64,000 nt of DNA, from contig NC_043010.1 of NCBI RefSeq assembly GCF_006345805.1, positions 60,264,001-60,328,000 of the forward strand, read 5' to 3'. Source of the DNA: Octopus sinensis (taxonomy: Eukaryota). Both the position numbers and the translations under genes were made by a program. Positions 19,440-64,000 of the stretch are shown here, piece after piece (the stretch's first letter is position 1; each line of letters starts with the position of its first letter). The notes below the pieces were generated by a model. It was not told the origin of the DNA and made no database searches. It saw only the letters and a list, made by a program, of their open reading frames with translations.

Positions 19440-21462
19440 TATATTCTGAAATGAGAATTTTTACAAATGCAAAGAATACAATAAAAAGATATTAAAGCCA
19501 GCAATGACTTTAAATTAAATCCTAATACTTGATAACTTATTATTGATGTTTATATATTTAGAAAAAGGAAAATACCTAACACACACTGAAACAAATGATC
19601 AAATGTATACTTCACTAAGCTCAACAGCAATGCTGATTATCAATGGAATTAACATTCAAAATAATGCTCAAAATTTGATCATAGATTTTATATTTCCTTT
19701 ATCAGAAATGTCTATTTGCAATTTAAAATTCAATAAAATTCATAATTTTATAGCTTATATTATGGTTACTGACACTGATAGTGGACTAATGGACAAATTA
19801 AGTATAATATCTATATATATAAAACTGTAGTTGTGTGAGTGTCTGTCCTCTTCGATTTAGATTCCTAACTACTCCCACATTTTGCGGTGCAGTTTAACCA
19901 AATTCGGGTATCTTATAGTCGTGATTCATATCGAGCCCGTCTGGGTATTAGCGCGCGTCTACAATGAGTCTACGATTTTAAAAATAATTTAACATCATTT
20001 TTTATTCCATTTTAATGCATAATTTTTCGTGTGTCGATGGCGGCGGAGTTGGCGTCCACGCTCACGCCTGCACCTGTGTCGTGAAGCTGTGGGGAAGGGA
20101 GTGTAAGGAAATCAACGTCGTAATGCGTTGTCAAGGAGACCAGCGTTCTTTTAGAACAACGACTTCATGGCTTGAAGACACCAAAACAGAAATGGCTAAG
20201 AAAGCCTGAATTGGCATCTATAAGGGAAGTAACTCTCTAAAAATGCTTATATAGTTATTTCCCTTACAAACCCGAGCAACGCCGGGCGATACTGCTAGTT
20301 CACCATAAAATGTTTCAAATTTCTTATATAGGTTCTAAAGAATATAAAATATTGGTCAAAGAACCTCTTGACAGAGAAATAAGGGACCACTACAAAGTAT
20401 CTATTGTGTGTCCTGACATGGGGTCACCTCAACTAGAAAGTAAAAAATATTTCTCTGTCAAAGTAACTGATGTCAATGATGTAGAACCACATTTTACCAA
20501 AGAGACATTCCAATTCCTCACCTATGAAAACCAGAAAGTTGACTTCCCTATTGGCTTCATCAATGCTACAGACCCTGATCTTGGAGATGGAGGCCAACTT
20601 ACATATTCTATCATCAATGATAACAACAATGATAACATTCCTTTCCAACTGACAAAATATGGATTTATTTCTACTTCACAATCAATAGATCGAGAAGTTA
20701 AAGACATCTTTGAGTTCCAGTGTTTAGTATACATATTTTTATTGAGATTCTAGATAAAAATGATAATGCTCCGTATTTTACGTTTCCTAATAATGACCCT
20801 TACAATCTAGATGTCCACTACCATCCACACAGTAAGAAGGACATCACAATTCTGAAAGCATCTGACAAAGACACTGGAAACAATGCTTTCCTCACATATG
20901 GAATACTGAGATCCAATGATAAAAACCTGTTTACAGCTAACTCACACACTGGTGTGTTATCTTTCTCTCGCACAGTTTACCAAAATGATGCAGGAACATA
21001 TGAGCTCCAGTTTATAGTGAAAGACGGTGGTACACCAGTTCAATCAGCAACAACTGCTATCATACTAACACTGTTTGTTAGTAATGATACATCTCCAATG
21101 TTGACTGCTGTGCCATTCCAGTCTGGTCACGACCTGAATATGACTTGGGTAATTATCATTGTAGCAGCAGCTGTAATACTATCTGTGGCTATTGTAGTGT
21201 CCATAACACTGTGTGTTTTCAGATGTATTAATCACATCAATAGTGCCCCTGAAACAGCACACAACCCAAACTTTGTCTCAGGCTGAATGAGACAGTTAAT
21301 GTATCAAGCCAACATTCATGTTGCAATAACTAGAAATGCAGAAGAGGCATTTAACAGAAATCTTCAGACAATTTACTCCAATCTCTTTATTACTCAGAGA
21401 TAGAACAATGTGCCAAAGGATGGAAATTCCCACTAACATTCAGATTACCACCAGTTCCACTG
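19440..21462 (+). pseudogene. Pcdh: Protocadherin pseudogene, large exon remnant (part of EC3 to cytoplasmic start)
   Basis: Decayed EC3/EC4 start (SLSSTAMLIIN...FIAYIMVTDTDSG), Helitron insertion at 19810-20298, net 34 nt deletion near 20728, frameshift near 21280; no signal peptide, EC1 or EC2 found. Confidence 0.92.
19810..20298 (+). mobile_element. Non-autonomous Helitron inserted in EC4 of the pseudogene
   Basis: Starts TC, ends CTAG, cccgagcaacgccggg hairpin near the 3' end; removing it restores aata|ttcacc exactly as in the intact paralogs (A|T target, no TSD). Confidence 0.92.
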
Positions 21463-22163
21463 GTGTTGCTATAGCAACTTCTGTGACCAGTTTCACATGT
21501 TGAATTTATTGTATTCTCAGTTATCTATATCTATTCATTGCAAAGTATTGCTATGCGATCAAAGTCATTTAAATATGGGATGTCTCAGAATTTTGATTCT
21601 GAAAATCATATCTTTTGATAGGTTGAACCTTCACTTGAATAATACATTCATTTTGTGATCATTATAAATTCACACAGTTAGAAATGAAAATTAATAATAT
21701 AATTCTTGTCCACATTAGAGTTTTTGGTGTTTTTTTTGGATTTTTAAATCTTTATACTTACAGCTACATCAATGTATTGCAGAATTTGCTCACTATAAAT
21801 ATTCTAATTTTCTCACAAAGAATCATAAACTTCAAGGATTTGAATTCATTTAAAAATAATTTGGAGAACTAAATAACTCATTTACAATTGTTTATAATTT
21901 TATTATGTTGTCAGGACAATTATGCTCAATTATTAGGAATTGTAAAAGATAGAACTATCAATTGTTACAGTAAATGAAAGTTTCAAGTATTTAAATTTGG
22001 ATACATTTGGCATCTGTTGACATCTGAAATTAGATTTAAGAAAATTGACAGGGTTTCGTAGTAACAAGCATTTTCTAAATAATTGTGATATAAAAGTGTA
22101 TACCTAATTATCTCAATCTAAAATATTTACTATTTTGGTAAATATTTACTATTGCAATGATAG

Positions 22164-22281
22164 TTCTACAATAAGCATTTAGATAAGTCTTGTGAGGAAG
22201 GTGACAGCCTAAATGAAACATTTCCACCAGTCAGAGATTGAGTGAAGGAGACATTGTACATCAGACATTGCAAATATCAAA
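22164..22281 (+). pseudogene. Pcdh: Degenerate first cytoplasmic exon of the protocadherin pseudogene
   Basis: tag|FYNKHLDKSCEEGDSLNETFPPVRD* then SEGDIVHQT in a shifted frame; homologous to 42985-43141. Confidence 0.75.
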
Positions 22282-22611
22282 GTAATTTATTAAATATAAA
22301 TAGAACAGCAATATTAATGTTATTATTAGTATATCATGTCTGTATCAAGTGCTTCCATAATTTCTCAACTCATCCAAACAACAAAATCTTTGGAAGTCTG
22401 ATATTTTTGTGATTTAAGAAAATATTTTTAAAAACTGAAAATGTTGGCTCAATTCACTGATAATCTCTGACAGAAGACATATGGAGAATGAGTTTGCTAC
22501 TACTCCAATAAATCTGTTGATATGATTTTTTTATTATAAAATTGTTTATTTTATATTTTTATATTGTATAAACAACACTGAAACAATTTATTATATATTC
22601 ACTGGTACAAT

Positions 22612-23028
22612 AGGCGCAGGAGTGGCTGTTTGGTAAGTAGCTTGCTAACCAAGCACATGGTTCCGGGTTCAGTCCCACTGCGTGGCATCTTGGGCAAGTG
22701 TCTTCTGCTATAGCCCCGGGCCGACCAATGCCTTGTGAGTTTGGTAGATGGAAACTGAAAGAAGCCTGTCGTATATATGTATATATATATATTGTGTGTG
22801 TGTATATGTTTGTGTGTGTGTGTTTGTCCCCCTAGCATTGCTTGACAACCGATGCTGGTGTGTTTACATCCCCGTCACTTAGCGGTTCGGCAAAAGAGAC
22901 CGATAGAATAAGTACTGGGCTTACAAAGAATAAGTCCCGGGGTCGATTTGCTCGACTAAAGTCGGTGCTCCAGCATGGCCGCAGTCAAATGACTGAAACA
23001 AGTAAAAGAGTAAAAAGAGAGTAAAGAG
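22612..23028 (+). mobile_element. Full-length tRNA-derived SINE
   Basis: A-box-like gtggctgtttggtaag, B-box-like ggttcagtccc, internal (TA)/(TG) tract, (AAAGAGT)n tail. Confidence 0.9.
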
Positions 23029-23229
23029 TATACTTTTTTTAATGCTATTATTTCAAATGGAAAACTATCAAAAGCCTTTATGAGAATTTCATATAGTAGA
23101 AACTACTAAATATAGCATAAATTTGAATACATACTATCAGCATAAATTTTTATTTTGATTTTCTTTCTTAAAACACAGTAAAAAAATCCTTTCTCAATGT
23201 TATATAAAATATATTTCTTTATTTTTCAG

Positions 23230-23321
23230 TTTGTATATAGGAACTACAAACCAAACAAAATCCCACACTAGAGGATTGAAATGAACAAGATATATACCTA
23301 GAGCCAGTAAAGAAGAAATAG
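23230..23321 (+). pseudogene. Pcdh: Degenerate last coding exon of the protocadherin pseudogene
   Basis: tttttcag acceptor; RNYKPN then frameshifted EQDIYLEPVKKK*; homologous to 45884-45972. Confidence 0.8.
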
Positions 23322-24387: not shown

Positions 24388-24554
24388 ATTTATTATACGT
24401 TACTACTCTATCTGTTTTGGGGATTTTATAACCAGCTACTTTGGTTCCTAGTACAAAATTATTAATGTAACATTTCAATTAGAATTTTTTTAAAAAATGA
24501 ATGTTAAATTTACAGATAAATAACATCCTTTTAGAGTCTAGTTGTCTCCCACTA

Positions 24555-24677
24555 TGACTCACAAATCTTTGTATCAATATATTGCCACTATCTCACTACT
24601 ACAGCAGTTGCACAGGAACACTACGCCATGATGAATGTCTTTTACATGAAATAGTGATAAAGGATTAAACAATGTAG
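24555..24677 (+). promoter_or_regulatory. Putative promoter (AP-1 site) and non-coding exon 1 of protocadherin A
   Basis: TGACTCACAA at 24555, Inr-like gcagtt near 24606, donor ag|gtaaat at 24678; homologous block upstream of each intact gene. Confidence 0.7.
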
Positions 24678-30437: not shown

Positions 30438-30583
30438 TATAAACTCTTTAGAAAAAAACCCTCACTTATTTGTGATAAGTGCCATATTCTTCATATTAAT
30501 ATTTCTGTATATGTTTGACTACGAAATTTTGCATTTTTTTCTTTTTAGATGTAAGAAACCAGGAATAACAATGAATTATAAAG

Positions 30584-32983
30584 ATGAAATGTAATGAAAT
30601 TCTACAAATTTACCTTCTTTATGGACTGATATATTCTGTTGTACCCATGGATATCAGTTATTATGTCAAGGAAGAAGACAGTCCTCACACCTACATAGGA
30701 GACATTGCTGCTGACTCCAACTTATCACACCCTCTCACACATCAACAACACACTCTCATTACATTTACACAACTACAAAGGACAGTCGAGAGTGGTTCTC
30801 ATTTATTTAATGTCACCAACTCAGGAAAACTATACACTACTCAAACACTGGATGCTGAGTCTCTGTGTACATACAACAAGGAATGTTCCAGAATTGTTAA
30901 AGTAGCAGTGAGGAAAGGAAAAACATTTATGAAGATTTTGAAGGTGAAAATAATTATAGAAGATATTAATGATCATCAACCAGAGTTTCCATCAAACAAA
31001 ATAAAAATCAAATTTGATGAAACAGATGGGAAAGGTTCAACAAAATCAATACCAAATGCTGTTGATAAAGACATTAGTCTTCCAAATTCTAAGATAATAT
31101 ATAAACTCAAAGATAAAAGCAAAACATTCTCACTCTCCATATTTAAAGAATCTGATGGAATAAATTTACTTAAAATAATTCTAGAAGGGATGTTAGATAG
31201 AGAATTAAAAGACACATATATGTTACAGTTGATCGCTAGAGATGGGGGTTCTCCACCAAAGGAAGGTATTCTGGACATTGAAATATCTGTTATTGATGTC
31301 AATGATAACAGACCTACGTTTACACAAAAATTATATAATACCACCATCAGTGATACACATCATATATCTTCTCCTGTTTTTGTTTTATCAGCAACAGATT
31401 TAGATTCTGGTCAAAATGGAAATATTAATTATTTTTTACATAGAAATACAAATGAATATGATAAAAAGTATTTCAAATTAAATCATAAATCTGGAGAAAT
31501 TTTCACCAATGATAATTTCTTCAGAAATAAAAGAAATAAATATAAATTATATGTTGAAGCTAGGGATGGCGGAAATCCTTCATTAAGCTCCATGTCAACG
31601 TTGATTATAAATGTAATTAACAATCAAAATAATGTGCCATCTATAAATATAGATTTTGTATCACCTTTAACAAAGACTTCAACTGCTATTTCAGAAGACA
31701 GTCAAATTGGTAGTTTTATAGCTTATGTTATGGTAACTGACACTGATAGTGGACCTAATGGACAAATTAAATGTAATATTCACCATAAAATGTTCCAGCT
31801 TTCTAATATGGGTTCCAAAGAATATAAAATATTAGTGAAAGAACCTCTTGACAGAGAAACTATAGACCATTATGTTGTTTCTATTGTATGTCATGACATG
31901 GGATCACCTCCATTAAAGACTAAGAAACAGTTCTCTGTCAAAGTAACTGATGTCAATGATGTAGAACCACATTTTACCAAAGAGACATTCCAATTCCTCA
32001 CCTATGAAAACCAGAAAGTTGACTTCCCTATTGGCTTCATCAATGCTACAGACCCTGATCTTGGAGATGGAGGCCAACTTACATATTCTATCATCAATGA
32101 TAACAACAATGATAACATTCCTTTCCAACTGACAAAATATGGATTTATTTCTACATCACAACCAATAGATCGAGAAGTGAAAGACATTTATAATTTACAA
32201 GTTTTAGTGAAAGACAATGGAACACCTTCTCTCAATGACACTGCCAATATTGTTATTGAGATTCTAGATAAAAATGATAATGCTCCGTATTTTACGTTTC
32301 CTAATAATGACCCTTACAATCTCGATGTCCACTACCATCCACACAGTAAGAAGGACATCACAATTCTGAAAGCATCTGACAAAGACACTGGAAACAATGC
32401 TTTCCTCACATATGGAATACTGAGATCCAATGATAAAAACCTGTTTACAGTGAACTCACACACTGGTGTGTTATCTTTCTCTCGCACAGTTTACCAAAAT
32501 GATGCAGGAACATATGAGCTGGAGTTTATAGTGAAAGACGGTGGTACTCCAGTTCAATCAGCAACAACTGCTATCATACTAACACTGTTTGTTAGTAATG
32601 ATACATCTCCAATGTTGACTGCTGTCCACTCACAGTCTGGTAACAACCTGAATATGACTTGGATAATTATCATTGTAGCAGCAGCTGTAATACTATCTGT
32701 GGCTGTTGTAGTGTCAATAACAATGTGTGTTTTCAAATGTATTAATCACTTCAATAATTCATCTGCAGAAAAAGATAATCCAAAATTTCTCTCTCAGACT
32801 GAGATGAGACAAATACTGTATCAGACTAACAATCCTGTTGCAATAACTAGAAATGCAGAAGACATATTTGCCAGAAATCTTCAAGCAATAAATCCCAAAA
32901 GTCCTTATTATACAGAGACAGAACAACCAATAAATGAATGGAAATTCTCAACAACACCCAGGAGGCTACCACCTACTCCTCAG
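30584..32983 (+). CDS. Pcdh: Protocadherin A, large coding exon (signal peptide, EC1-EC6, TM, proximal tail); spliced protein ~876 aa
   Basis: Six cadherin repeats (DINDHQPEF, LDRE, DVNDNRP, DKNDNAP), TM WIIIIVAAAVILSVAVVVSITMCVF; acceptor tttttag at 30548, phase-0 donor cag|gtatgt. Confidence 0.96.
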
Positions 32984-35080: not shown

Positions 35081-35231
35081 AATTACACAAAAGACATAAC
35101 AGAGAGTTCAGGTGAACAAAAATGTTATAATGGTACATCAAACAACTTAAATACTACTCTAACTTCTCAAAAAGAACGAAATCGAGGATGGAGCGAAGGA
35201 GATATTACACAACAGACGTCTGGAGTATCAG
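35081..35231 (+). CDS. Pcdh: Protocadherin A, first cytoplasmic exon
   Basis: ttttttctgaaag|NYTKDITESSGEQKCYNGTSNNLNTTLTSQKERNRGWSEGDITQQTSGVS g|gtaatt; phase 0 in, phase 1 out. Confidence 0.85.
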
Positions 35232-35520: not shown

Positions 35521-35600
35521 AGTACAGTAACTATCACCCAAACATACCTCCAACAGCAAAGAGCGAATATGAACAAGAAACCTATCTAGCACCGGTTTAA
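35521..35600 (+). CDS. Pcdh: Protocadherin A, last coding exon
   Basis: ttttcag|(E)YSNYHPNIPPTAKSEYEQETYLAPV*; phase matches the previous exon. Confidence 0.87.
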
Positions 35601-37061
35601 CATACATCATGTTTACTTTTCATTAATTACAGAACCACTTAGAAAATAATTTAATATAATTTAATTATGACATTATATTAAACACTACTTTAAATGTATT
35701 GAAGCTTTTTGTTTCTTGGGTTTTTTTTGGAAGATTTCTATAAAGAAAAATCCTTTTAATTATAATGAAAATCATAAAACTATTGAGAGTTTTACTGAAG
35801 CTTTTTGTTATAATCAAAAACAACAAAAATCTATATAGGTGTTACACTGATAAATATTTAACAATGCAATTTATATTTTGTAAAATAAAATGAGAGATTT
35901 GGCTTAAATTCCTAGTAGTAGCCATATCTTTTTGACAATGTCAATAAATCAATTTTCCCTCACCTTCTAAACATCAAGTTTATGGTTAAATGAAAAGTAT
36001 TTAGAATGTATTTCAAACAGAAATCCAAAAGTCTCATACAAAAAGTGACAGCTTGTGGCTACTCATTAGCCAACATCTCTCTCTCTCTCTCTCAAATTGA
36101 TAGGAGCCAAATCAACATCATCACATTTTATCCTTTGTCATTTCCTTCATGGCAGTCAACTCCCTAAGATCTGCTTCCCCCCACCGCTTTCCATTATTTC
36201 CTGGGTCTTCTCCTCTTACAGGTTCCTTCCACTTGGACTGTCTGAGGCATCTTTACCCATCTATATTTGAGAAAATGCTTGTTCAGCTTTTCGTGTAGTG
36301 AAAAATTGTAATAAAAGTATTTGAAATTGAAGCCATACAAAATGCGTTAATAAAGTAAAATTTTAGTAGCAAATTTATGAATGTATATTAGAGAATTTAC
36401 TGGATGATAAACAAACACATTATTTTATTTTATACACTTTAATGGAAAAATAGATATGACTGTCAACAATAGATATACTATCATGTAGGAAGTGTGTGTG
36501 TGTTCATGAACATGTTCACATACATTACATGAACAAAGGCATTCTGAAATACAGCTAATCTTGATATACAAAAAACATTTTCATAAATTTCCTCACAACA
36601 AAAAGAATTATAATATGATTTTAAAATCATTGTTTTTTGTTTCTAATATGATTTTGGAAAATTTTATATAAAATAAAACCATTACAATTAAAAAATACAA
36701 TTTGAATCATAAATTTAAAAAATTGAATTGATAAATTAAATTTATATATGTTTATTATCATGTAATTATTTTATTTCATAACATTAAATGTCTAAAAGAA
36801 TTTGGTGACAGATTTGTTATTCTATCAAAATACTGCATGTGTGTGTGTGTGTGTTGTACACATATACAGAGAGAAACAGATTATTAAGATAATTAAGTAT
36901 AATGAATAGATGTATTAAATTCCATAACCAAAAGGCACTGAAAAACAAAGAAAACTCTTCCACACTCCAACACATACAGTGCAGACGTACAAATACACAT
37001 ATATATACAATTACAAAGTTAAAACACAAATTCCCAAATAAAGGTTCTACTTCCTGTCATC

Positions 37062-37191
37062 TGACTCACAACTGCAGTTCATCGATATACAGCGCTAGTC
37101 ATACTATAATAGCAGTTTTAACACCAGAATGCTACACCAGGATGAACATCTCTGATCTTATATTATAGAAACAATGGATTAAACAATGAAG
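37062..37191 (+). promoter_or_regulatory. Putative promoter (AP-1 site) and non-coding exon 1 of protocadherin B
   Basis: TGACTCACAA at 37062, gcagtt near 37114, ggattaaacaatgaag|gtaagt donor. Confidence 0.7.
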
Positions 37192-39450: not shown

Positions 39451-39551
39451 GACTCAATTCTGGACATGATTTGCATTTGAAAATTAAAAATAATAATAAT
39501 AATTGCATTCATCTTTTCCTTGTTTCTAGGTGCTGATAAATTCAAGGATCA

Positions 39552-41960
39552 ATGATGATCGCAACAATGACTATGTACACACTAATGTTGTTCATTGCAT
39601 ACACAAAGCTGCCAGTTGTTATTTCTGCAAATATTGTTTACCATATCAACGAAGAAGAGAGTCCTCATGCCTATATAGGAGACATTGCTGTTGATTCTAA
39701 CTTGTCACGTTCTCTCACACATCAGCAACACGCTCTTGTTACGTTTACACAACTGCAAAGGAAAGTGTCAAGTGGCTCTCACTTATTCAATGTGACCAAC
39801 ACAGGAAAACTATACACTACTCAGACACTGGATGCTGAGTCCCTGTGTATTTACATGAAAGAATGTTTTAAAATTGTCAAAGTAGCAGTGAGGAAAGCAG
39901 TAATATTTATTAAAATATTAACGATAAAAATCATTATAGAAGATATTAATGATCATCAACCACAGTTTCCAGAAGATCAAATAAAATTAGAATTTGATGA
40001 AACTGAGGGAAAAGGTTCAACAAAATCAATACCAAATGCTGTTGATAAAGACATTGGTCTTCTCAATTCTAACATCACATATAAACTGAAAGATAAAAGT
40101 AAGAAATTCTCACTATCCACATTTAAAGGATTTGATGGAGTAAACTTACTTAAAATAACCCTAGAAGGAATGTTAGACAGAGAATTAAAAGACACTTATA
40201 AGTTACAGTTGGTGGCTAAAGACAGAGGCTCTCCAACAAAAGAAGGTATATTGAACATAGAAATATCTGTTATAGATGTTAATGATAATCAGCCACAGTT
40301 TCCCCAACAAATATACAATATCTCTATTAGTGATACACATCACATATCTACTCCAATTTTTATCTTATCAGCTACAGACTTAGACTCAGGTAAAAATGGA
40401 GATATTACATATAACTTCTATCAAAGGGCAAGTTCTTATGCTGAAAAAAATTTTAAATTAACGTCAAATGGAGAAATTTTCCTAAACGAGAACTTTTATA
40501 AAGATAGGGGACAAATTTATAAACTATATATTCAAGCCATGGATAGAGGAAGACCTCCCTTAAGTTCGACAGCAATGTTGATTATTAATGTAATTAACAA
40601 TCAAAATAATGCCCCAAATATAAACATAGATTTTGTAGCTCCTCTAACAGAGACCTCTACAACTATTTCAGAAGCAAGTCAAATTGGGAGTTTTATAGCT
40701 TACGTTATGGTCATTGACACTGATAGTGGACCTAATGGACAAATAAAATGTAATATTCATCATAAAATGTTCCGGCTTTCTAATATGGGTTCTAAAGAAT
40801 ATAAAATATTGGTGAAAGAACCTCTTGACAGAGAAACTATAGACCATTATGTTGTTTCTATTGTATGTCATGACATGGGATCACCTCCATTAAAGACTAA
40901 GAAACAGTTCTCTGTCAAAGTAACTGATGTCAATGATGTAGAACCACATTTTACCAAAGAGACATTCCAATTCCTCACCTATGAAAACCAGAAAGTTGAC
41001 TTCCCTATTGGCTTCATCAATGCTACAGACCCAGATCTGGGAGATGGAGGCCAACTTACATATTCTATCATCAATGATAACAACAATGATAACATTCCTT
41101 TCCAACTGACAAAATATGGATTTATTTCTACATCACAACCAATAGATCGAGAAGTGAAAGACATCTATAATTTACAGGTTTTAGTCAAAGACAATGGAAC
41201 GCCCTCTTTGAATAACACTGCCAACATTCTTATAGAGATTCTAGATAAAAATGACAATGCACCTTATTTTATCTTTCCTAATAATGACCCTTACAATCTC
41301 GATGTCCACTACCATCCACACAGTAAGAAGGACATCACAATTCTGAAAGCATCTGACAAAGACACTGGAAACAATGCTTTCCTCACATATGGAATACTGA
41401 GATCCAATGATAAAAACCTGTTTACAGTGAACTCACACACTGGTGTGTTATCTTTCTCTCGCACAGTCTACCAAAATGATGCAGGAACATATGAGCTGCA
41501 GTTTATAGTGAAAGACGGTGGTACTCCAGTTCAATCAGCAACAACTGCTATCATACTAACACTGTTTGTTAGTAATGATACATCTCCAATGTTGAATGCT
41601 ATCCACTCACAGTCTGATAACAACCTGAATATGACTTGGATAATTATCATTGTAGCAGCAGCTGTAATACTATCTGTGGCTGTTGTAGTGTCAATAACAA
41701 TGTGTGTTTTCAAATGTATTAATCACTTCAATAATTCATCTGCAGAAAAAGATAATCCAAAATTTCTCTCAAGGACCGAAATGAGACAAATCTTGTATCA
41801 GACTAACAATCCTGTTGCAATAACAAGAAATGCAGAAGATATATTTGCCAGAAATCTTCAAGCAATAAATCCCAAAAGTCCTTATTATACAGAGACAGAA
41901 CAACCAATAAATGAATGGAAATTCTCAACAACACCCAGGAGGCTACCACCTACTCCTCAG
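39552..41960 (+). CDS. Pcdh: Protocadherin B, large coding exon; spliced protein ~884 aa
   Basis: Six cadherin repeats and TM; acceptor tttctag at 39529; phase-0 donor cag|gtatag; true start could be a later in-frame ATG (39555 or 39567). Confidence 0.96.
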
Positions 41961-42984: not shown

Positions 42985-43141
42985 ATCTATAATAAGCAAG
43001 TTTCTGATGGGTCATGTGAACAAGGCGACAATAATAGTATTGTGACATCAAACAATCTAAGTGACACATTACCATCTCAAAAGGATCGCAACCGTGGATG
43101 GAATGAAGGAGATATTTCACATCAAACTTCAATAATATCAG
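42985..43141 (+). CDS. Pcdh: Protocadherin B, first cytoplasmic exon
   Basis: tactttcatgttag|IYNKQVSDGSCEQGDNNSIVTSNNLSDTLPSQKDRNRGWNEGDISHQTSIIS g|gtaatt. Confidence 0.87.
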
Positions 43142-45883: not shown

Positions 45884-45972
45884 AATACAGTAACTACACA
45901 CCAAACATACCTCCTACACCAAAGAGTGATCATGAACAAGATACATATCTAGAACCTGTATATAAGAAATAG
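45884..45972 (+). CDS. Pcdh: Protocadherin B, last coding exon
   Basis: tttcag|(E)YSNYTPNIPPTPKSDHEQDTYLEPVYKK*. Confidence 0.88.
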
Positions 45973-46558: not shown

Positions 46559-47072
46559 AAATTGGATTTCCCATGAAAATTCTGATTTCAAATTGATCAT
46601 AATATATTATAATGCATATAATCCAACATGCTACCATATTTGTCCAAGTTTATTTTGAGTATTATAATTTTAGTTGATATTTTAAATTTACTTTTAAAAT
46701 TATGAATAAATAAAAATAACAGATAAAATTACTGCAATTTTTCAGTTTTCCTAAAATTTTAAATGAATTATTAGTAATTCAATAATTACTGTAAGAACTA
46801 TTGGAAAATAGCTGTTAAGGATAAAAATCAAAAAGACTATATATCACAAAAATGTGTGTGTGTGTATGTTTAGACAGATATGCGTGAGTGAATTTAGAAT
46901 TATGTATATGGTACAATCTGATGATTATATGCTACATTCAGTTATAGACCAAAATATATTTCACTTTAGATCAAAAACAATCTTCATTTATAAGGAAAAA
47001 TAATTTTTGAATATATATATACAATATACAAAGTTAAATAGAATTCCCTAACATGAAACTGCTACCCAACTA

Positions 47073-47199
47073 TGACTCACAAATCTACACAACCAAGATA
47101 CTGCTATTGTAGCATTATTACAGCAGCAGTTACACTGGAACACTACGCCATGATGAATGTCTTCTCTAAGGGACAAGAACAAAGGATTAAGCAAAATAG
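47073..47199 (+). promoter_or_regulatory. Putative promoter (AP-1 site) and non-coding exon 1 of protocadherin C
   Basis: ctaTGACTCACAAatct at 47073, gcagtt near 47128, ggaacactacgccatgatgaatgtctt shared with gene A, donor ag|gtaagt. Confidence 0.72.
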
Positions 47200-50491: not shown

Positions 50492-51520
50492 TAAAGTTTT
50501 AGAACGTTTTAAAAATATGCATTTTTATGAGTTGATTCATAAAAGTAAGATATGAGAATGAAACTTAAAAAGAAGGTAATTATTTCAGAACCAGTTTTGC
50601 AAGAAGTATCACAAATTGCAAATATTTATATAATGAGTAGGTCTTTATTAAGTTTTACTTTAGTGAAGTAAAATTTTATTGACCCCAGAAGGAAGGAAAG
50701 CAAAGCTAACATTGGTGGTATTTCAACTCAGAATGTCAAGAGATGTGACAAATAGCAAACTGGGTGATGCTCTAATCATTCTACCTATCAAACACAACGT
50801 CATTCTTTAATGATAAAAATAGTCCCATATAAGATATATAGAAGAAACAGATTCACTTGCCATACTGAGTTGGTTCAGTTTTCAAATCATTCTTCTCTCC
50901 AAACTTTTACAGGCACAACTCATTATTAGTAAAATATTTAGTTTAGTTTAGTAAAATATGTTTACCTTTAGTTTATCATCTAGTTATAAAGATACTCATA
51001 CCAGTTCAATTTGTGTTTTGTGTCATAATCACACTTGCATCTCAGTAATTTATTTTTTACATTTTGATATTGTCTTATGTTTTCTTAAATTAATCAACAC
51101 TTCATTCTCATTTACATAATTTGTGTTATACAAAATAGTTGAAAACTATACTTTATAATTTAGATAGTATTAAGTTAAATTTTCAGAATAAAAGATATTG
51201 ATGTGAGCTAGTGGCTATGACATTTTGTGAATTTACTTTTCCTTTAGCTAACAGGTAACATGCAACTGTGGAGACTGATAAAATTTTAAAAATCAATCAG
51301 GCCATTACCTTGACTATATCTTCAGTTTAACAAGTTCATTTATCAATCAAAAATTTAAGACATTTCTAGAAATCTTAATTATGACTGAAAAGTAAGGAGG
51401 ATTTTATATAAGATAAGTACATTTTGCAATACTTTAAAACGTATTTGTGTGAATAAGTTAATATTTTAATATTTCATTTTAGATATATGGATTTATGAAT
51501 TGTAATAATGAATTACAATA

Positions 51521-53920
51521 ATGAGTGTAATCAACACTCTGCAGCTTTACATTCTGTATGGGATAATGTATCCAGTCGTGTGCATAGAAATTATATACCA
51601 TGTCAATGAAGAAGACAGTCCACACACATATATAGGAGACATTGCTGCTGACTCCAACTTATCACACCCTCTCACACATCAACAACACACTCTCATTACA
51701 TTTACACAACTGCAAAGGAAAGTGTCAAGTGGGTCTCAATTATTCAATGTCACCAACTCAGGAAAACTCTACACTACTCAAACACTGGATGCTGAGTCTC
51801 TGTGTACATACAACAAGGAATGTTCCAGAATTGTTAAAGTAGCAGTGAGGAAAACAGGAACATTTATAAAGATATTGAAGATAAAAATAATTATAGAAGA
51901 TATCAACGATCATCAACCACAGTTTCCAGATGATCAAATTAAAATAGAGTTTTATGAGACGGATGTAAAAGGATTTTCAAAATCAATACCAAATGCTGTT
52001 GATAAAGACATTGGTCTTCTCAATTCTAACATCACATACAGACTCGATGATAAAAGCAAGAAATTCTCACTATCCATATTTAAAGGATTTGATGGAATAA
52101 ACTTACTTAAAATAACTCTAGAAGGAATGTTAGACAGAGAAGAAATTCACAGTTACATGTTACATTTAGTAGCTAAAGATGGAGGTACTCCACCAAAAGA
52201 AAGTATATTGAACATATATATTTCTGTTACAGATGTTAATGACAACCAACCAATGTTTACACAAAAATCATATAATACTACCATCACCGACACACATCAC
52301 ATATCTTCTCCTGTGATTCTTTTATCTGCAACAGATTTAGATTCTGGTCAAAATGGGAACATTACTTACTATTTACATAGAAATACAAATAAATATGCCA
52401 GAAAACATTTCAAATTAAATTCTAAAACAGGAGAAATTTTCATCAATGATAATTTCTTTAGAAATAAAGAAAATAAATATCAATTGTACATTGAAGCCAG
52501 AGATGGTGGAAATCCTTCATTAAGCTCCATGGCAATGTTAATTATTAATATCATTAACAATCAAAATAATGTTCCATCTATAAATATAGATTTTGTATCA
52601 CCTTTAACAGAGACCTCTACTGCTGTTTCAGAAGCAAGTCAAATTGGTAGTTTTATAGCTTATGTTATGGTTACTGACACTGATAGTGGACCTAATGGAC
52701 AAATTAAATGTAATATTCACCATAAAATGTTCCAGCTTTCAAATATGGGTTCTAAAGAATATAAAATATTGGTGAAAGAACCTCTTGACAGAGAAACTAT
52801 AGACCATTATGTTGTTTCTATTGTATGTCATGACATGGGATCACCTCCATTAAAGACTAAGAAACAGTTCTCTGTCAAAGTAACTGATGTCAATGATGTA
52901 GAACCACATTTTACCAAAGAGACATTCCAATTCCTCACCTATGAAAACCAGAAAGTTGACTTCCCTATTGGCTTCATCAATGCTACAGACCCTGATCTTG
53001 GAGATGGAGGCCAACTTACATATTCTATCATCAATGATAACAACAATGATAACATTCCTTTCCAACTGACAAAATATGGATTTATTTCTACATCACAACC
53101 AATAGATCGAGAAGTGAAAGACATCTATAATTTACAAGTTTTAGTCAAAGATAATGGAACACCTTCTCTGAACAACACTGCTAACATTCTTATTGAGATT
53201 CTAGATAAAAATGATAATGCACCTTATTTCATCTTTCCTAACAATGACCCTTACAATCTAGATGTCCACTACCATCCACACAGTAAGAAGGACATCACAA
53301 TTCTGAAAGCATCTGACAAAGACACTGGAAACAATGCTTTCCTCACATATGGAATACTGAGATCCAATGATAAAAACCTGTTTACAGTGAACTCACACAC
53401 TGGTGTGTTATCTTTCTCTCGCACAGTTTACCAAAATGATGCAGGAACATATGAACTGCAGTTTATAGTGAAAGACGGTGGTACTCCAGTTCAATCAGCA
53501 ACAACTGCTATCATACTAACACTGTTTGTTAGTAATGATACATCTCCAATGTTGAATGCTATCCACTCACAGTCTGATAACAACCTGAATATGACTTGGA
53601 TAATTATCATTGTAGCAGCAGCTGTAATACTATCTGTGGCTGTTGTAGTGTCCATAACAATGTGTGTTTTTAGATGTATTAATCACATCAATAATTCATC
53701 TGCAGAAAAAAATAATCCAAAATTTCTCTCTCAAACTGAGATGAGACAAATTCTGTATCAGACTAACAATCCTGTTGCAATAACTCGGAATGCAGAAGAC
53801 ATATTTGCCAGAAATCTTCAATCTATAAATCCTAAAAGCCCATATTATCCAGAGATAGACCAGTTAAGTGGTGAATGGAAATTCTCAACAACACACAGGA
53901 GACTTCCATCCATTCCACAA
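51521..53920 (+). CDS. Pcdh: Protocadherin C, large coding exon; spliced protein ~873 aa
   Basis: Six cadherin repeats and TM; acceptor ttttag at 51482; phase-0 donor caa|gtatgt (the last 27 aa of the listed ORF are intron read-through). Confidence 0.96.
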
Positions 53921-55420: not shown

Positions 55421-55553
55421 GTTTCAGGTGGATCTTGTGATCAAATTGACAACACCAGTATTGTGACATCAAACAACCTAAGTGATACATTGCCATCTCA
55501 AAGAGATTGCAAACATGGATGGAATGAAGCTGATGTTAAACATCAGACATCAG
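55421..55553 (+). CDS. Pcdh: Protocadherin C, first cytoplasmic exon (5' boundary uncertain)
   Basis: VSGGSCDQIDNTSIVTSNNLSDTLPSQRDCKHGWNEADVKHQTS g|gtaaat; the homologous acceptor reads GG (55404-55405), next in-frame AG at 55419-55420. Confidence 0.75.
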
Positions 55554-56384: not shown

Positions 56385-56473
56385 AATACAGTAACTATAC
56401 ACCAAACATACCTCCAATACCAAAAGGTGAACATGAACAAGACACATATCTTGAACCAGTATATAAGCAGTAA
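56385..56473 (+). CDS. Pcdh: Protocadherin C, last coding exon
   Basis: ctctattttcag|(E)YSNYTPNIPPIPKGEHEQDTYLEPVYKQ*. Confidence 0.88.
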
Positions 56474-57295
56474 ATATGTATAACCAGTAAACACAATATT
56501 AACATGACTCCAAATATTGCAGAAATAATGAAATTTCTCTGGGGTTTTATCATCAGAACTTAATCAGAACATTTAATTAGCAAATACAGAATAACATATA
56601 GAATCAGGTAATTAATGCATATATATATGTGTGTGTGTGTGTGTGTAAACAAATGGGATAATTCAAATTCAAAATGCATGATGATGAAACTGATTATTTT
56701 GGTTACACATTAGGCCAAAATCATGTATTGTATTAGAGGTGCTGCTAGTGAAAGGAGTTTAAGTTTCATATAGTCTGCAGGCTGAAAATATAAGAACGTC
56801 ATATTAGAAAACACTTGCTTCACTAATCTACAATTTTGTCACCATCTATTGTATTTTCAAATAATATACGATTTTAAAAATTAAAATACGAGTTGATATT
56901 TTCGAATTATAAAAATTATCTTTAAATTATAAAATTATCAATAACTTAGAAAAATTATAAAACATTTAGAATTCAATCTAAATGAATACTTTATGCCATA
57001 ATCCACTGTCACATATGTTGTGATATTGCTACTGAGGATAGAAGTTAATATTCACATATTGTAATAATCATTGCATGAACATGAGCATGTGTGTGCCCGT
57101 ATGTTAGTGTGTTGTAAACATTCATGTACAAGAGCAAATCTACTATATATATGTATATATTACTGTATATTAAAAATACTTACTGCAAAATTCATTATTA
57201 AATGCTTTAATCATTGTTTAAAGTGCATAAATTTAAATAGATACAATAAGAATAGATAAAAAAAAAGTATTTCAAACTGTAATTGGCTCCCTCTA

Positions 57296-57418
57296 TGACT
57301 CACAAATCTATTCCGTACAGATACTGTCATTGTCAAACTACTACAGCAGCAGTTACACAGGAATACTACAAAAGAACAAATGCCTGTTATAAGAATCACA
57401 AAAGATTGAATAATTTTG
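57296..57418 (+). promoter_or_regulatory. Putative promoter (AP-1 site) and non-coding exon 1 of protocadherin D
   Basis: ctaTGACTCACAAatct at 57296, ctactacagcagcagttacacaggaa near 57351, donor g|gtaagt at 57419. Confidence 0.7.
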
Positions 57419-58367: not shown

Positions 58368-58391
<24 letters not shown>

Positions 58392-58650: not shown

Positions 58651-58693
<43 letters not shown>

Positions 58694-59048: not shown

Positions 59049-59577
<529 letters not shown>

Positions 59578-60021: not shown

Positions 60022-60068
<47 letters not shown>

Positions 60069-60789
60069 GGTAGTGTTTATCCCCACTTTAACGTGGCTAT
60101 TCTGTAAGAGATGATGAACTGCAATTTTAAGCCCAGGAAGATATCCCTTCCAGCTCATTTATTGAATGTCACACACACGTGCACACAAACAAACAAGCAC
60201 AGAAAAGCAATACTCTGCAAAAAAAAGCATAGAGCTATCTGCGAAACAAAGTAAGGAGTTTGAAGGGTAGAATCCCCTCCCAGAAAAAATGGATTGCATT
60301 AAAATTTTACATGTATATACGTAAAATTATAAAATGTACATACAAATATACATGTATATGCATAAAATTTTATCTCAATCTTGTTTTCTGAGAGGGGCTT
60401 CTGCTCCTCAAACTCCTTACTTCATTTCTTACATATCTTTATGGTTTTTTGGATGGCAGTACTTTTGTGTGCATGTATATATATATATATATATACAAAA
60501 TCTGTGGAAAAAGACAAAGAGTAGCAAATTGAGGTCATTAATTTGTGGGGAGAGAATGGGGAGGAAATGAACCAGGTGCCAGGGTGTGGCTAAGATTTTT
60601 AGTAGTGAATGGAATTGGTAGTATGATGTGTGTGTATATATATGAATAATTATAAACTTTTTTAAAAAGAAGCATAATTTCAAAAAGATCTCTAATTATG
60701 AATTATCATTACTTTATTGCTACTGGATCAGTAAAACTGAGGAATTTAATGTTGAAGTGCAAAATTACATATTGTAAAGCACCTGGATT

Positions 60790-61100
60790 ATATTTTTAGT
60801 ATTTGTGAAAATTTCACTTTGTTGAGCTTCATAATGTGCCATAACTATAGTTTACTGAATTATTTCTCACATATAGAGAACACTGCAACAAAATTGTATC
60901 CATAACTTATTACTCAATGGTCACCAAAGTTCAATAGACATTTAAAAAAAAAATCTATGAATTAGTATAGGATTTTTTTTTAATATTTGCTGAAAATTTT
61001 AGAAGCACCTACAGCAATGCTGGCTGTAGCTGTTTTAGGTGTTTCTCACATATAGAGAACACTGCAACCGTATAAGGAAACATGCTCTAGATTCAACTAT
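60790..61100. repeat. Diverged ~180 bp tandem duplication
   Basis: tttctcacatatagagaacactgcaac occurs at ~60864 and ~61042 with similar flanks. Confidence 0.7.
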
Positions 61101-61520
61101 GAATCCCAAAGAGATATTGCAATGTGTACAAAATAATTTTTCATGTCAGACAGAAGTTTTGTATTTTCAAGCGCTAAACCAACATGTAGCTGCCATAAGG
61201 TTGATTGACTACAACCATACTATATGTTTTTGGCTAAAGCTTTAGATGTTCATTTTATATTTTAGCGAATAATTTATTATGTTAAATCAGAATTATTTTC
61301 ATTGAGGAAAAAAATAGTGAAAACCAGCACAAACTCAGTCAGTTATCATTATTTCATTACGTAACTACTCATCAATTTCAAATAAAAACTGTGTAATACA
61401 GAGTCGCATTATTTTGAAGACGATTCCAAAATTTTAATAGAAATGTTCAATTGGTTTCACCGACTTTAGAATCCATTCTATCGCTGATCATCTTAAAAGA
61501 AATATACGAAAACTGAGGAG

Positions 61521-61532
61521 GGGGAACAACTC
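61521..61532 (+). promoter_or_regulatory. GGGRRRYAACTC motif in intron 1 of gene D
   Basis: ggggaacaactc in a CpG-retaining patch; function inferred only. Confidence 0.35.
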
Positions 61533-61884
61533 TAATGTTTTTCAAGATCCTTAGCGTTATTTAATCTTGTAGATTATCTGATAAAATATCTATTGCAATA
61601 ACTATTAACTTATTTTCATTTAGATAACAACCTCCAAGCATGTATAAAGTTTTTACTTCAAGATATTACCTCAAGTCTTAATTTTTATAAACTATATCAA
61701 ATATTTCAGGATGTCACAAATGCTTCAAGATAATAACTGGATAAATTAAATGCATTTGGCTTTTAAAGAAACATGTATTTTGCATATATAAAACCTTTTA
61801 TATATATAAAACTGATGAAATCAAATATATGTAGCATTAATTCAAAATGATTTTTCTTTTTTAGAACAATATTCATGACAAATA

Positions 61885-64000
61885 ATGAATTACAACAATG
61901 ATTATAATCAACACATAAAATTTTACTTTCTCTATGGATTGATGTATACTGTAGTTTCTATAGACATTACTTACTATGTCAAGGAAGAAGATAGTCCTCA
62001 CACCTATATAGGAGACATTTCCGTTGACTCCAACTTATCACACCCTCTCACACATCAACAACACACTCTCATTACATTTACACAACTACAAAGGACAGTC
62101 GAGAGTGGTTCTCATTTATTTAATGTCACCAACTCAGGAAAACTATACACTACTCAAACACTGGATGCTGAGTCTCTGTGTACATACAACAAGGAATGTT
62201 CCAGAATAGTTAAGGTGGCAGTGAGGAAAGCAGGAACATTTATAAAGATATTGAAGATAAAAATAATTATAGAAGATATTAATGACCACCAGCCAGAGTT
62301 TCCTCAAAAGCAAATAAAATTACAGTTTGATGAATATTACAGCAAAGGAACTGCAAAATCAATACCAAATGCTGTTGATAAAGACATTAGTCTTCCAAAT
62401 TCTAAGATAATATATAAACTCAAAGATAAAAGCAAAACATTCTCACTCTCCATATTTAAAGAATCTGATGGAATAAGTTTACTTAAAATAATTCTAGAAG
62501 GAATGTTAGATAGAGAATTAAAAGACACTTATATGTTACAGTTGATGGCTAGAGATGGAGGTTCTCCACCAAAAGAAGGTATTCTGGACATTGAAATATC
62601 TGTTATTGATGTCAATGATAACAGACCTACGTTTACACAAAAATTATATAATACCACCATCAGTGATACACATCATATATCTTCTCCTGTTTTTGTTTTA
62701 TCAGCAACAGATTTAGATTCTGGTCAAAATGGAAATATTAATTATTTTTTACATAGAAATACAAATGAATATGATAAAAAGTATTTCAAATTAAATCATA
62801 AATCTGGAGAAATCTTCATCAATGATAATTTCTTTAGAAATAAGGAAAGTAAATACCAGTTATATGTTGGAGCTAGGGATGGCGGAAATCCTTCATTAAG
62901 CTCCATGTCAACGTTGATTATAAATGTAATTAACAATCAAAATAATGTGCCATCTATAAATATAGATTTTGTATCACCTTTAACAAAGACTTCTACTGCT
63001 ATCTCAGAAGCAAGTAAAATTGGAAGTTTTATAGCTTATGTTATGGTCACTGACACTGATAGAGGACCTAATGGACAAATTAAATGTAATATTCACCATA
63101 AAATGTTCCAGCTTTCTAATATGGGTTCTAAAGAATATAAAATATTGGTGAAAGAACCTCTGGACAGAGAAACTATAGACCATTATGTTGTTTCTATTGT
63201 ATGTCATGACATGGGATCACCTCCATTAAAGACTAAGAAACAGTTCTCTGTCAAAGTAACTGATGTCAATGATGTAGAACCACATTTTACCAAAGAGACA
63301 TTCCAATTCCTCACCTATGAAAACCAGAAAGTTGACTTCCCTATTGGCTTCATCAATGCTACAGACCCTGATCTTGGAGATGGAGGCCAACTTACATATT
63401 CTATCATCAATGATAACAACAATGATAACATTCCTTTCCAACTGACAAAATATGGATTTATTTCTACATCACAACCAATAGATCGAGAAGTGAAAGACAT
63501 CTATAATTTACAGGTTTTAGTCAAAGATAATGGAACACCTTCTCTGAATAACACTGCCAACATTCTTATAGAGATTCTAGATAAAAATGATAATGCTCCG
63601 TATTTTACACTTCCTAATAATGACCCTTACAATCTAGATGTCCACTACCATCCACACAGTAAGAAGGACATCACAATTTTGAAAGCATCTGACAAAGACA
63701 CTGGAAACAATGCTTTCCTCACATATGGAATACTGAGATCCAATGATAAAAACCTGTTTACAGTGAACTCACACACTGGTGTGTTATCTTTCTCTCGCAC
63801 AGTCTACCAAAATGATGCAGGAACATATGAGCTGCAGTTTATAGTGAAAGACGGTGGTACTCCAGTTCAATCAGCAACAACTGCTATCATACTAACACTG
63901 TTTGTTAGTAACGATACATCTCCAATGTTGACTGCTATCCACTCACAGTCTGATAACAACCTGGATATGACTTGGATAATTATCATTGTAGCAGCAGCTG
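61885..64000 (+). CDS. Pcdh: Protocadherin D, large coding exon, 3'-truncated by the window edge (absent from the ORF track)
   Basis: Manual translation from ATG 61885: MNYNNDYNQHIKFYFLYGLMYTVVSIDITYYVKEEDSPHTYIGDI... open through EC1-EC6 to DMTWIIIIVAAA; acceptor ttttag at 61864. Confidence 0.9.
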   Translation, partial: MNYNNDYNQHIKFYFLYGLMYTVVSIDITYYVKEEDSPHTYIGDISVDSNLSHPLTHQQHTLITFTQLQRTVESGSHLFNVTNSGKLYTTQTLDAESLCTYNKECSRIVKVAVRKAGTFIKILKIKIIIEDINDHQPEFPQKQIKLQFDEYYSKGTAKSIPNAVDKDISLPNSKIIYKLKDKSKTFSLSIFKESDGISLLKIILEGMLDRELKDTYMLQLMARDGGSPPKEGILDIEISVIDVNDNRPTFTQKLYNTTISDTHHISSPVFVLSATDLDSGQNGNINYFLHRNTNEYDKKYFKLNHKSGEIFINDNFFRNKESKYQLYVGARDGGNPSLSSMSTLIINVINNQNNVPSINIDFVSPLTKTSTAISEASKIGSFIAYVMVTDTDRGPNGQIKCNIHHKMFQLSNMGSKEYKILVKEPLDRETIDHYVVSIVCHDMGSPPLKTKKQFSVKVTDVNDVEPHFTKETFQFLTYENQKVDFPIGFINATDPDLGDGGQLTYSIINDNNNDNIPFQLTKYGFISTSQPIDREVKDIYNLQVLVKDNGTPSLNNTANILIEILDKNDNAPYFTLPNNDPYNLDVHYHPHSKKDITILKASDKDTGNNAFLTYGILRSNDKNLFTVNSHTGVLSFSRTVYQNDAGTYELQFIVKDGGTPVQSATTAIILTLFVSNDTSPMLTAIHSQSDNNLDMTWIIIIVAAA

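What the first reader, a model, noticed from the sequence alone, without database searches (positions are those of the whole stretch)
19440..64000. Tandem protocadherin array built from self-contained four-exon units with no shared constant exons
Seen: five + strand copies spaced about 10-12 kb apart. Each intact copy has a non-coding exon 1 and a ~2.4 kb exon. A, B, C and the pseudogene each have their own pair of small cytoplasmic exons, with matching phases (0 then 1) in A-C, that the ORF track misses. Established: vertebrate Pcdh alpha/gamma clusters splice variable exons onto shared constant exons, and cephalopods expanded protocadherins independently. Inference: this is a convergent cluster with a different logic. 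Because all donors and acceptors are phase-compatible, an upstream ectodomain could in principle splice onto a downstream gene's tail.
Basis: partly seen in the sequence, partly recalled or inferred. Interest (0 to 1): 0.75.

Follow-up and report, generated by a model that had tools for sequence, protein, structure and literature searches.

The report
Tandem octopus protocadherin gene array
This stretch of an octopus chromosome holds a row of complete protocadherin (nerve-cell adhesion) genes, each predicted to carry its own two small tail exons instead of sharing them as vertebrate clusters do; this layout is already published for cephalopods, so the finding is real but ordinary.

Summary
Window 19.5-64 kb carries one decayed and four intact + strand protocadherin units. 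Each has a conserved non-coding exon 1, a ~2.43 kb exon (signal peptide, six cadherin repeats, membrane span, start of the tail) and two private small cytoplasmic exons.

The array runs on beyond the window. 12 of 12 consecutive units have their own tail exons, as do 8 of 8 and 9 of 9 units in two other sub-arrays of the same contig. The tails are under purifying selection (pN<pS in 66 of 66 pairs). A named public gene model for a unit 80 kb downstream has the same exon structure.

"No shared constant exons; whole-gene duplication instead" is correct but already in print (Albertin et al. 2022, PMC9068888).

Cross-gene splicing remains only a formal possibility. A public 5090-aa model fuses six of these genes, and Styfhals et al. 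2022 report read-through fusions that they treat as annotation errors.

Extras: gene conversion of EC4-TM, mosaic units, a TGACTCAC box in every exon 1.

The parts
19549..21444 (+). Pseudogene: relic of the large exon. Residues of about 312-793 remain, the N-terminal third is missing, and there are frameshifts and an in-frame stop.
   Evidence: tblastn with gene A in frames 1/3/2/1; one TGA inside the match
22164..22279 (+). Pseudogene: decayed exon-3 relic
   Evidence: Weak tblastn/blastn matches to the exon 3 of A, B and C
23236..23318 (+). Pseudogene: decayed exon-4 relic with an in-frame stop
   Evidence: blastn 75% to B's exon 4; tblastn shows an internal stop
24552..24677 (+). Gene A exon 1 (non-coding; the 5' end is not mapped). 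It starts at the conserved CTATGACTCACAAATCT box; donor TAG|GTAAAT.
   Evidence: Homologous to the exon 1 of C and D and of 13 units; donor
30549..32983 (+). Gene A exon 2 (ATG at 30584). It encodes the signal peptide, six cadherin repeats, the membrane span (residues 694-714) and 86 cytoplasmic residues. The donor is in phase 0.
   Evidence: a contig match begins exactly at 30549 (record 19)
35081..35231 (+). Gene A exon 3 (151 nt, phase 0 to 1)
   Evidence: AG/GT sites and an open frame; conserved among paralogues
35521..35600 (+). Gene A exon 4 coding part up to the stop (the peptide ends ...ETYLAPV)
37059..37191 (+). Gene B exon 1 (non-coding; TGACTCACAA at 37062; donor AAG|GTAAGT)
39530..41960 (+). 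Gene B exon 2 (ATG at 39552)
42985..43141 (+). Gene B exon 3 (157 nt)
45884..45972 (+). Gene B exon 4 coding part up to the stop
47070..47199 (+). Gene C exon 1 (non-coding; same 17-nt box; donor TAG|GTAAGT)
51483..53920 (+). Gene C exon 2 (ATG at 51521; donor CAA|GTATGT)
55421..55553 (+). Gene C exon 3 (133 nt). It is shortened at the 5' side because the ancestral acceptor AG is lost and AAAAAG|GTT is used.
   Evidence: the public model P0121 uses the same boundary
56385..56473 (+). Gene C exon 4 coding part up to the stop
57293..57418 (+). Gene D exon 1 (non-coding; same 17-nt box; donor TTG|GTAAGT)
61865..64000 (+). Gene D exon 2 (ATG at 61885). It runs off the window to 64296. Its private exons 3 and 4 lie at 64518-64665 and 65092-65180 in window numbering, outside the window.

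Best explanation
The window holds one decayed and four intact same-strand protocadherin genes of an octopus tandem array. Each is predicted to be a self-contained four-exon unit, so receptor diversity here likely comes from whole-gene duplication, gene conversion and one promoter per gene rather than from splicing variable exons onto shared constant exons.

Shown directly:
- The periodic order exon 1 -> 2.43 kb exon -> exon 3 -> exon 4 holds for 12 consecutive units.
- Splice sites are canonical and phases match at every unit.
- The small exons are under purifying selection.
- One unit of the same array has an independent public gene model with this structure.
- EC4-to-TM is homogenised among paralogues while EC1-EC3 and the tails diverge.
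- Individual genes are mosaics of different neighbours.

Inferred:
- The junctions are the ones used in vivo.
- Exon 1 marks each gene's own promoter. The invariant TGA[C/T]TCAC box sits at the 5' edge of the homology.
- The proteins act as neuronal homophilic adhesion or recognition molecules, with specificity in EC1-EC3. This is by analogy with vertebrate clustered protocadherins and with published neural expression in octopus.
For: Domains. Cadherin E about 1e-74 and Cadherin_2 in all four large ORFs. A hydrophobic span lies at residues 694-714. No Pfam family falls on the cytoplasmic part of the full-length relatives P0124 and P0002.

Junctions. 6 of 6 listed junctions are GT..AG with phases 0 and 1.

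Array beyond the window.
- 13 terminal-exon matches, all on the + strand of the same contig over 132 kb.
- 148 large-exon-end matches in the genome, a lower bound, most of them on that contig.
- In 204 kb around the window, 12 of 12 units have a private exon 3 (AG..GT, open, phase 0 to 1) and exon 4 (AG..stop). There is also one orphan tail.
- Two other sub-arrays give 8 of 8 and 9 of 9 units with private tails.

Constraint. Tail exons have pN<pS in 66 of 66 pairs, mean ratio 0.35.

Independent models.
- P0124 (named putative protocadherin beta-18, Octopus sinensis, 882 aa) maps at 99.9-100% onto unit K as exon 2 + 3 + 4.
- Named Octopus vulgaris and Argonauta hians proteins of 852-884 aa end in the same tail pattern.

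Exon 1. Homologues exist for 13 of 13 units, all carrying TGA[CT]TCAC. 12 of 13 have a donor of the AG|GTAAGT type: 11 read AG|GTAA and L reads AG|GTATGT. Unit E, with ACA|GTAAGT, is the exception. The exact TGACTCACAA occurs 9 times in 204 kb. All are on the + strand and all lie between one unit's exon 4 and the next exon 2.

Literature.
- PMC9068888 (passage read): multi-exonic, same-direction arrays, pseudogene fragments, no shared final exons.
- PMC6339937 (section read): head-to-tail clusters.
Against: No read-level confirmation of any junction. In one search the joints table was filled by SINE repeats, and the runs are only guessed to be RNA.

The public model P0121 (5090 aa, same contig) strings genes C, D, E, F, G and H together and ends on unit L's tail 52 kb further on. 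So at least one annotation pipeline found or invented cross-unit joins.

Styfhals et al. 2022 (PMC9712504, methods passage) report read-through transcripts that fuse octopus PCDH genes.

The transcription start of exon 1 is not mapped. The TGACTCAC box is not found at matching positions in the two other sub-arrays.
Confidence: 0.87

Rival explanations
1. The units are not independent. Transcription reads through the ~1 kb gaps between genes, and phase-compatible sites let an upstream ectodomain exon join a downstream unit's tail (or an upstream exon 3 join the next exon 2). This would give regulated chimeric isoforms, a facultative variable/constant system.
For: - All exon-2 donors are in phase 0 and all exon-3 acceptors in phase 0.
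- The gaps between a stop codon and the next exon 1 are only 0.8-1.4 kb.
- The public model P0121 contains an H-ectodomain -> L-tail join and exon 3 -> next exon 2 joins.
- Styfhals et al. 2022 mention read-through fusions among octopus PCDH genes (methods passage).
Against: - The P0121 joins enter the next large exon 57-60 nt inside its coding region. One join has no AG acceptor. The product would carry six ectodomains and six membrane spans, so it looks like an ORF-preserving artefact.
- Near-identical paralogue segments (EC4-TM 95-99%) invite mis-mapped junction reads.
- The authors who saw the fusions treated them as errors.
- Each unit's own tail is under purifying selection.
- I saw no cross-unit joint (uninformative).
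Confidence: 0.07
2. The small exons next to each large exon are dead relics, and the large exons splice to shared constant exons somewhere outside the sampled region, as in vertebrate alpha/gamma clusters.
For: In P0121 one large exon (H) is joined to a tail 52 kb downstream. In sub-array S74 the tails of different genes are 96-100% identical in protein sequence, so they are 'constant' in sequence.
Against: - 29 of 29 units examined have their own open, AG/GT-bounded tail exons.
- pN<pS in 66 of 66 pairs.
- Only the pseudogene's tail has decayed.
- Named models in three other octopod species end in the local tail type.
- A published statement says the opposite.
Confidence: 0.02
3. The locus encodes one giant multi-ectodomain protein, as the public 5090-aa model has it.
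For: P0121 (5090 aa) and similar long models (1592, 1794, 4355 and 5758 aa) exist in public sets for this and related octopus loci.
Against: - Every unit has its own start codon with a signal-peptide-like N-terminus, its own stop codon and its own exon 1.
- The fusion needs a donor overlapping C's stop codon, a cryptic acceptor inside D's exon 1 and a non-AG acceptor.
- Unit K of the same array is modelled alone.
Confidence: 0.02

Closest known systems
Cephalopod tandem protocadherin arrays (Octopus bimaculoides, Doryteuthis pealeii and Euprymna scolopes: Albertin et al. 2015, recalled and not held; Albertin et al. 2022, PMC9068888, passage read)
   Same: [quoted passage not shown]
- Fragmentary pseudogenes between them.
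- Homogenisation by gene conversion.
- No shared final exons.
   Different: Nothing in kind. This is another species' copy of the same system. Details I did not find in the passages I read: exon-by-exon coordinates, the EC4-TM conversion tract, mosaic units, the exon-1 TGACTCAC box, and the fused public model at this locus.
Vertebrate clustered protocadherin alpha and gamma clusters
   Same: - Tandem same-strand ~2.4 kb exons, each encoding six cadherin repeats, the membrane span and a short cytoplasmic stretch.
- Diversity is concentrated in the membrane-distal repeats, while the membrane-proximal repeats are homogenised (here EC1-3 against EC4-TM).
- A short conserved sequence lies upstream of each unit.
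   Different: - In vertebrates the large exon is a first exon spliced to three shared constant exons.
- Here the large exon is exon 2, with its own upstream non-coding exon and its own two tail exons (12 of 12 units).
- The conserved upstream box is TGACTCAC-like, not the vertebrate CSE (the CSE is recalled, not tested).
Vertebrate protocadherin beta cluster
   Same: Tandem genes without shared constant exons. Each gene is complete in itself.
   Different: Beta genes are single-exon genes with a short tail (recalled). The octopus units add a 5' non-coding exon and two private 3' coding exons.
Chelicerate Dscam arrays with tandem 5' cassettes (cited in PMC6339937, passage read)
   Same: An invertebrate recognition-receptor family diversified by tandem duplication and promoter choice.
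   Different: A different protein family (immunoglobulin superfamily), and those cassettes do share downstream exons.

Membership tests
Protocadherin (cadherin superfamily) | Several extracellular cadherin repeats, with the Cadherin_2-type first repeat | tested here: met
   PF00028 with 5 stretches at E about 1e-74, plus PF08266, in all four large ORFs
Protocadherin (cadherin superfamily) | A single membrane span after the last repeat, and an N-terminal signal-like hydrophobic start | tested here: met
   Hydropathy maximum at residues 694-714 of A; hydrophobic N-terminus. This is a simple scan, not a dedicated predictor.
Protocadherin (cadherin superfamily) | No classical-cadherin catenin-binding cytoplasmic domain | tested here: met
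   No Pfam family on the cytoplasmic part of the full-length relatives P0124 and P0002 at E<=0.01
Vertebrate-type variable/constant clustered protocadherin locus | Tandem same-strand large exons, each encoding the ectodomain and membrane span | tested here: met
Vertebrate-type variable/constant clustered protocadherin locus | Shared constant exons at the 3' end, spliced to every variable exon | tested here: not met
   12 of 12 units here and 17 of 17 in two other sub-arrays have private tail exons between successive large exons. The tails are constrained.
Vertebrate-type variable/constant clustered protocadherin locus | The large exon is the first exon, directly behind its own promoter | tested here: not met
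   Each large exon has an AG acceptor 20-38 nt before its ATG. A conserved upstream exon with a GT donor exists for 13 of 13 units. Use of these sites in RNA was not shown.
Vertebrate-type variable/constant clustered protocadherin locus | CTCF-binding conserved sequence element in each promoter | not tested
   The CSE consensus is only recalled, so I did not search for it. A different conserved box (TGA[CT]TCAC) is present.
Cephalopod tandem protocadherin array | Closely related, multi-exonic genes in one direction, formed by whole-gene duplication | tested here: met
   definition from PMC9068888
Cephalopod tandem protocadherin array | Interspersed fragmentary pseudogenes and signs of gene conversion | tested here: met
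   - Pseudogene at 19549-23318.
- Truncated or frameshifted units G and H, and an orphan tail.
- dS 0.06-0.20 in EC4-TM against 0.55-0.87 in EC1-3.
Cephalopod tandem protocadherin array | Enriched expression in nervous tissue | not testable with these tools
   No run on record as RNA was listed. Expression is taken from the literature only.

The most novel reading that the evidence does not exclude
Octopus neurons exploit the ~1 kb gaps and the universal phase match between units. Read-through transcription lets an upstream ectodomain exon be spliced onto a downstream unit's tail, so the array works part of the time like a vertebrate variable/constant cluster and multiplies ectodomain-tail combinations. 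The TGACTCAC (AP-1-like) box in every exon 1 would then be the switch that sets which unit starts the transcript.
Probability: 0.05. Interest if true: 0.75.

Novelty: already known. Interest (0 to 1): 0.2.

Why it matters
It is a clean worked example of the published point that cephalopods and vertebrates built protocadherin diversity convergently but by different genomic means.

Practical value:
- It gives exon-level coordinates for four genes and a pseudogene at a locus where the public model fuses six genes into a 5090-aa protein.
- It shows that ectodomain, juxtamembrane part and tail are reshuffled between neighbours at the DNA level.
- It flags a conserved exon-1 box that could be tested as the per-gene promoter element.

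None of this changes the accepted picture.

Tried and rejected
- Read evidence, first laying. The look-up of sequencing runs listed no holder on record as RNA. Read laying on 24401-44400 at likeness 90 was swamped by SINE-derived contigs. All 15 joints shown were repeat artefacts, so it says nothing for or against the predicted junctions. Only the contig break at 30549 was useful.
- Transcript-derived protein fragments. I searched for fragments spanning C's junctions and the C/D fusion point (shorter proteins). It returned only genome-annotation proteins, no transcript assemblies.
- TGACTCAC box in other sub-arrays. I looked for it, and the looser TGA[CG]TCA, at matching positions. It is not consistently placed there, so I do not claim it as a general cephalopod protocadherin promoter element.
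- Albertin et al. 2015 could not be read (not held). What I say of it is recalled.
- Earlier notes of this scan: none for this genome.
- Print search for a conserved promoter element in cephalopod protocadherins: 2 papers held all terms, both on vertebrate clusters. I found no description of such a box, but only that one search addressed it.


Full report
**What is there.** The window has four long + strand ORFs: 30584-32998, 39552-41966, 51521-54004, and 61885 running off the end. Each matches the Cadherin family at E about 1e-74 with five stretches, plus the Cadherin_2 first repeat. A fifth ORF of 215 aa at 43911-44558 has no family. tblastn with gene A finds a fifth, decayed copy at 19549-21444 that reads in frames 1, 3, 2 and 1. 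It has an in-frame TGA. Exon-2 starts lie 9.0-12.0 kb apart. Composition is AT-rich (about 0.30-0.35 G+C), with octopus-type SINE repeats in the introns.

**Junctions.**
- Splicing A and B in silico gives open frames. The large exon ends in phase 0 and exon 3 ends in phase 1. The two tails are clearly homologous.
- Gene C's large exon ends at 53920 (CAA|GTATGT), not at the ORF end.
- C's exon 3 has lost the ancestral acceptor and starts at 55421, after AAAAAG.
- Exon-2 acceptors lie at 30549, 39530, 51483 and 61865.
- Exon-1 donors lie after 24677, 37191, 47199 and 57418.
- The pseudogene keeps decayed tail exons at 22164-22279 and at 23236-23318, the latter with an internal stop.

**Where it lies.**
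- The window is C14:60264001-60328000 of a 2.72 Gb genome, on a 68.4 Mb contig.
- The best protein hits are named Octopus vulgaris (94%), Argonauta hians (about 80%) and Octopus sinensis proteins.
- A named O. sinensis protein, P0124, maps at 99.9-100% to the same contig. The genome is therefore an Octopus, most likely that species.

**The array beyond the window.**
- A 25-residue exon-4 query finds 13 copies, all on the + strand of C14 over 132 kb.
- A 100-residue query from the end of the large exon finds 148 matches at E<=1e-5 (207 candidates, 150 scored, a lower bound). Most are on C14.
- I fetched 140 kb of flanks. In the resulting 204 kb, the order exon-1 homologue -> large exon -> exon 3 -> exon 4 repeats for 12 consecutive units, A to L.
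- Every unit has AG..GT around an open exon 3 in phase 0 to 1. Every unit has an AG-preceded exon 4 running to a stop. The split codon is always Glu.
- Units G and H have damaged large exons. There is one orphan tail at about 155.9-156.3 kb in window numbering.
- Two further sub-arrays of the contig show the same rule: 8 of 8 and 9 of 9 units have private tail exons.
- In 2 of the 8 S74 units, the exon 2 and exon 3 parts lie in one HSP about 144 nt longer than the protein. Intron 2 there is short and open, or lost.

**Are the small exons real?**
- Among the 12 tails, pN<pS in 66 of 66 pairs, with a mean ratio of 0.35.
- The introns around them give no blastn similarity between units, whereas the exons do.
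- P0124 gives an independent public model with exactly this exon 2-3-4 layout on unit K.
- Named proteins of other octopods end in the same tail pattern.
- No Pfam family covers the cytoplasmic part.

**Read evidence.**
- I have no read-level proof of any junction.
- The listed runs are only guessed to be RNA.
- In the one successful laying, repeats filled the joints table.
- The single useful item is a 159-nt contig whose match starts exactly at 30549, with 15 unmatched letters before it (record 19).

**How it most likely works.**
- Each unit is a complete gene with its own 5' exon, start codon, stop codon and tail. Shared constant exons are excluded for the 29 units examined.
- Diversity sits in EC1-EC3: mean identity 74-83%, dS 0.55-0.87.
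- EC4 through the membrane span is 93-99% identical, with dS 0.06-0.20. That is the signature of gene conversion.
- Units are mosaics. A's EC1-3 is 92-95% like D, E and F. Its juxtamembrane part is 99% like B. Its tail is closest to J and I, at 76% and 72%.
- Ectodomain-tail combinations have thus been reshuffled in the DNA.
- By analogy with vertebrate clustered protocadherins, and from published neural expression in octopus, the proteins likely act as neuronal recognition molecules chosen gene by gene. This last step is inferred.

**Exon 1.**
- All 13 exon-1 homologues carry TGA[CT]TCAC at the 5' edge of the homology (11 of 13 read TGACTCAC).
- 12 of 13 have a donor of the AG|GTAAGT type: 11 read AG|GTAA and L reads AG|GTATGT. 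Unit E has ACA|GTAAGT instead.
- The exact 10-mer TGACTCACAA occurs 9 times in 204 kb. All are on the + strand, between a unit's exon 4 and the next exon 2.
- The 17-mer has 3 exact copies in the window, against 0.41 matches expected at up to 3 mismatches. One of 100 shuffles reached 3.
- The core equals the AP-1 consensus; that consensus is recalled.
- The box is not placed consistently in the two other sub-arrays. I treat it as a sub-family feature and a candidate promoter element only.

**Cross-gene splicing.**
- The phases do allow it.
- The gaps from a stop codon to the next exon 1 are only 0.8-1.4 kb.
- The public 5090-aa model P0121 on this contig starts at C's ATG and passes C's exons 3 and 4.
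- It leaves exon 4 at a GT overlapping the stop codon and enters D's exon 1 at an internal AG.
- It goes on through D, E, F, G and H and ends on L's tail, 52 kb beyond H.
- Its joins enter the next large exons 57-60 nt inside their coding sequence, and one lacks an AG. The product makes no topological sense. I read it as an annotation artefact.
- Similar long models exist for other octopus loci.
- Styfhals et al. 2022 write that read-through transcripts caused PCDH gene fusions, which they corrected by hand (methods passage).
- Read-through RNA probably exists. A function for it is not supported.

**Comparison with what is known.**
- Albertin et al. [quoted passage not shown] They state that cephalopods do not splice multiple first exons to shared final exons but duplicated whole genes.
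- Styfhals et al. 2019 (section read) summarise the head-to-tail clusters.

**Verdict.** A real feature, correctly read, already published in kind. Interest is low (0.2). The locus-level details are useful mainly for re-annotation.

Noticed in passing
window 51521-64000 and on to about 167.7 kb in window numbering (C14:60315521-60431700): The public protein model P0121 (5090 aa) fuses genes C, D, E, F, G and H and ends on unit L's tail. Fused models of 1592-5758 aa also exist for related octopus loci. It looks like mis-annotation of a tandem array.
   Followed up: yes
window 24552-24568, 37059-37071, 47070-47086, 57293-57309 (and nine more units downstream): There is an invariant TGA[C/T]TCAC box (AP-1-like core) at the 5' edge of every exon-1 homologue, 13 of 13. 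The 17-mer CTATGACTCACAAATCT is identical in A, C and D. It is not placed consistently in two other sub-arrays.
   Followed up: partly
large exons of units A-F and I-K (window 30584-32983 and others): EC4 through the membrane span is homogenised (dS 0.06-0.20), while EC1-3, the juxtamembrane part and the tails diverge (dS about 0.5-0.9). Gene A is a three-way mosaic: its ectodomain is like D/E/F, its juxtamembrane part is 99% like B, and its tail is like I/J.
   Followed up: yes
window 14565-15224 and 17930-18430: These are retroelement fragments. Reverse transcriptase matches at E 7e-17 at 17930-18430. A PHD finger and a weak RT match lie at 14565-15224. They sit in the 20 kb between a more distant upstream protocadherin gene and the pseudogene.
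   Followed up: partly
L002 (C14:60253928-60256258) and about 0.8-0.9 kb before the window start: An upstream, more divergent protocadherin gene (53% identical to A) has its large exon about 7.7-10 kb before the window. An exon-3-like match lies about 0.8-0.9 kb before it. Its last exon may lie at the very start of the window, but I did not find it.
   Followed up: no
window 44000-45700 (inside B's intron between exons 3 and 4): This is a G+C-rich block (0.435 against about 0.31) with ORFs of 135-215 aa on both strands and no Pfam family. It is moderately repeated in the DNA-like run X15: summed contig depth is 2760 and 5469 in the two bins covering 43077-44400, which reach only to 44400, against about 80-190 in the three bins before them. 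It is probably an unclassified repeat.
   Followed up: no
L023-L029 (C14:60495001-60565000): In this sub-array the private tail exons of eight genes are 96-100% identical in protein sequence. They are 'constant' in sequence though not shared. In two genes the exon 2 and exon 3 parts lie in one open HSP, so the intron is about 144 nt and in frame, or lost.
   Followed up: partly
window 24552-24677 + 30549-30583 and the equivalents in B, C and D: The predicted 5' leaders (146-186 nt) each contain several upstream ATGs with short ORFs, for example MMNVFYMK in A. This is a possible translational control.
   Followed up: no
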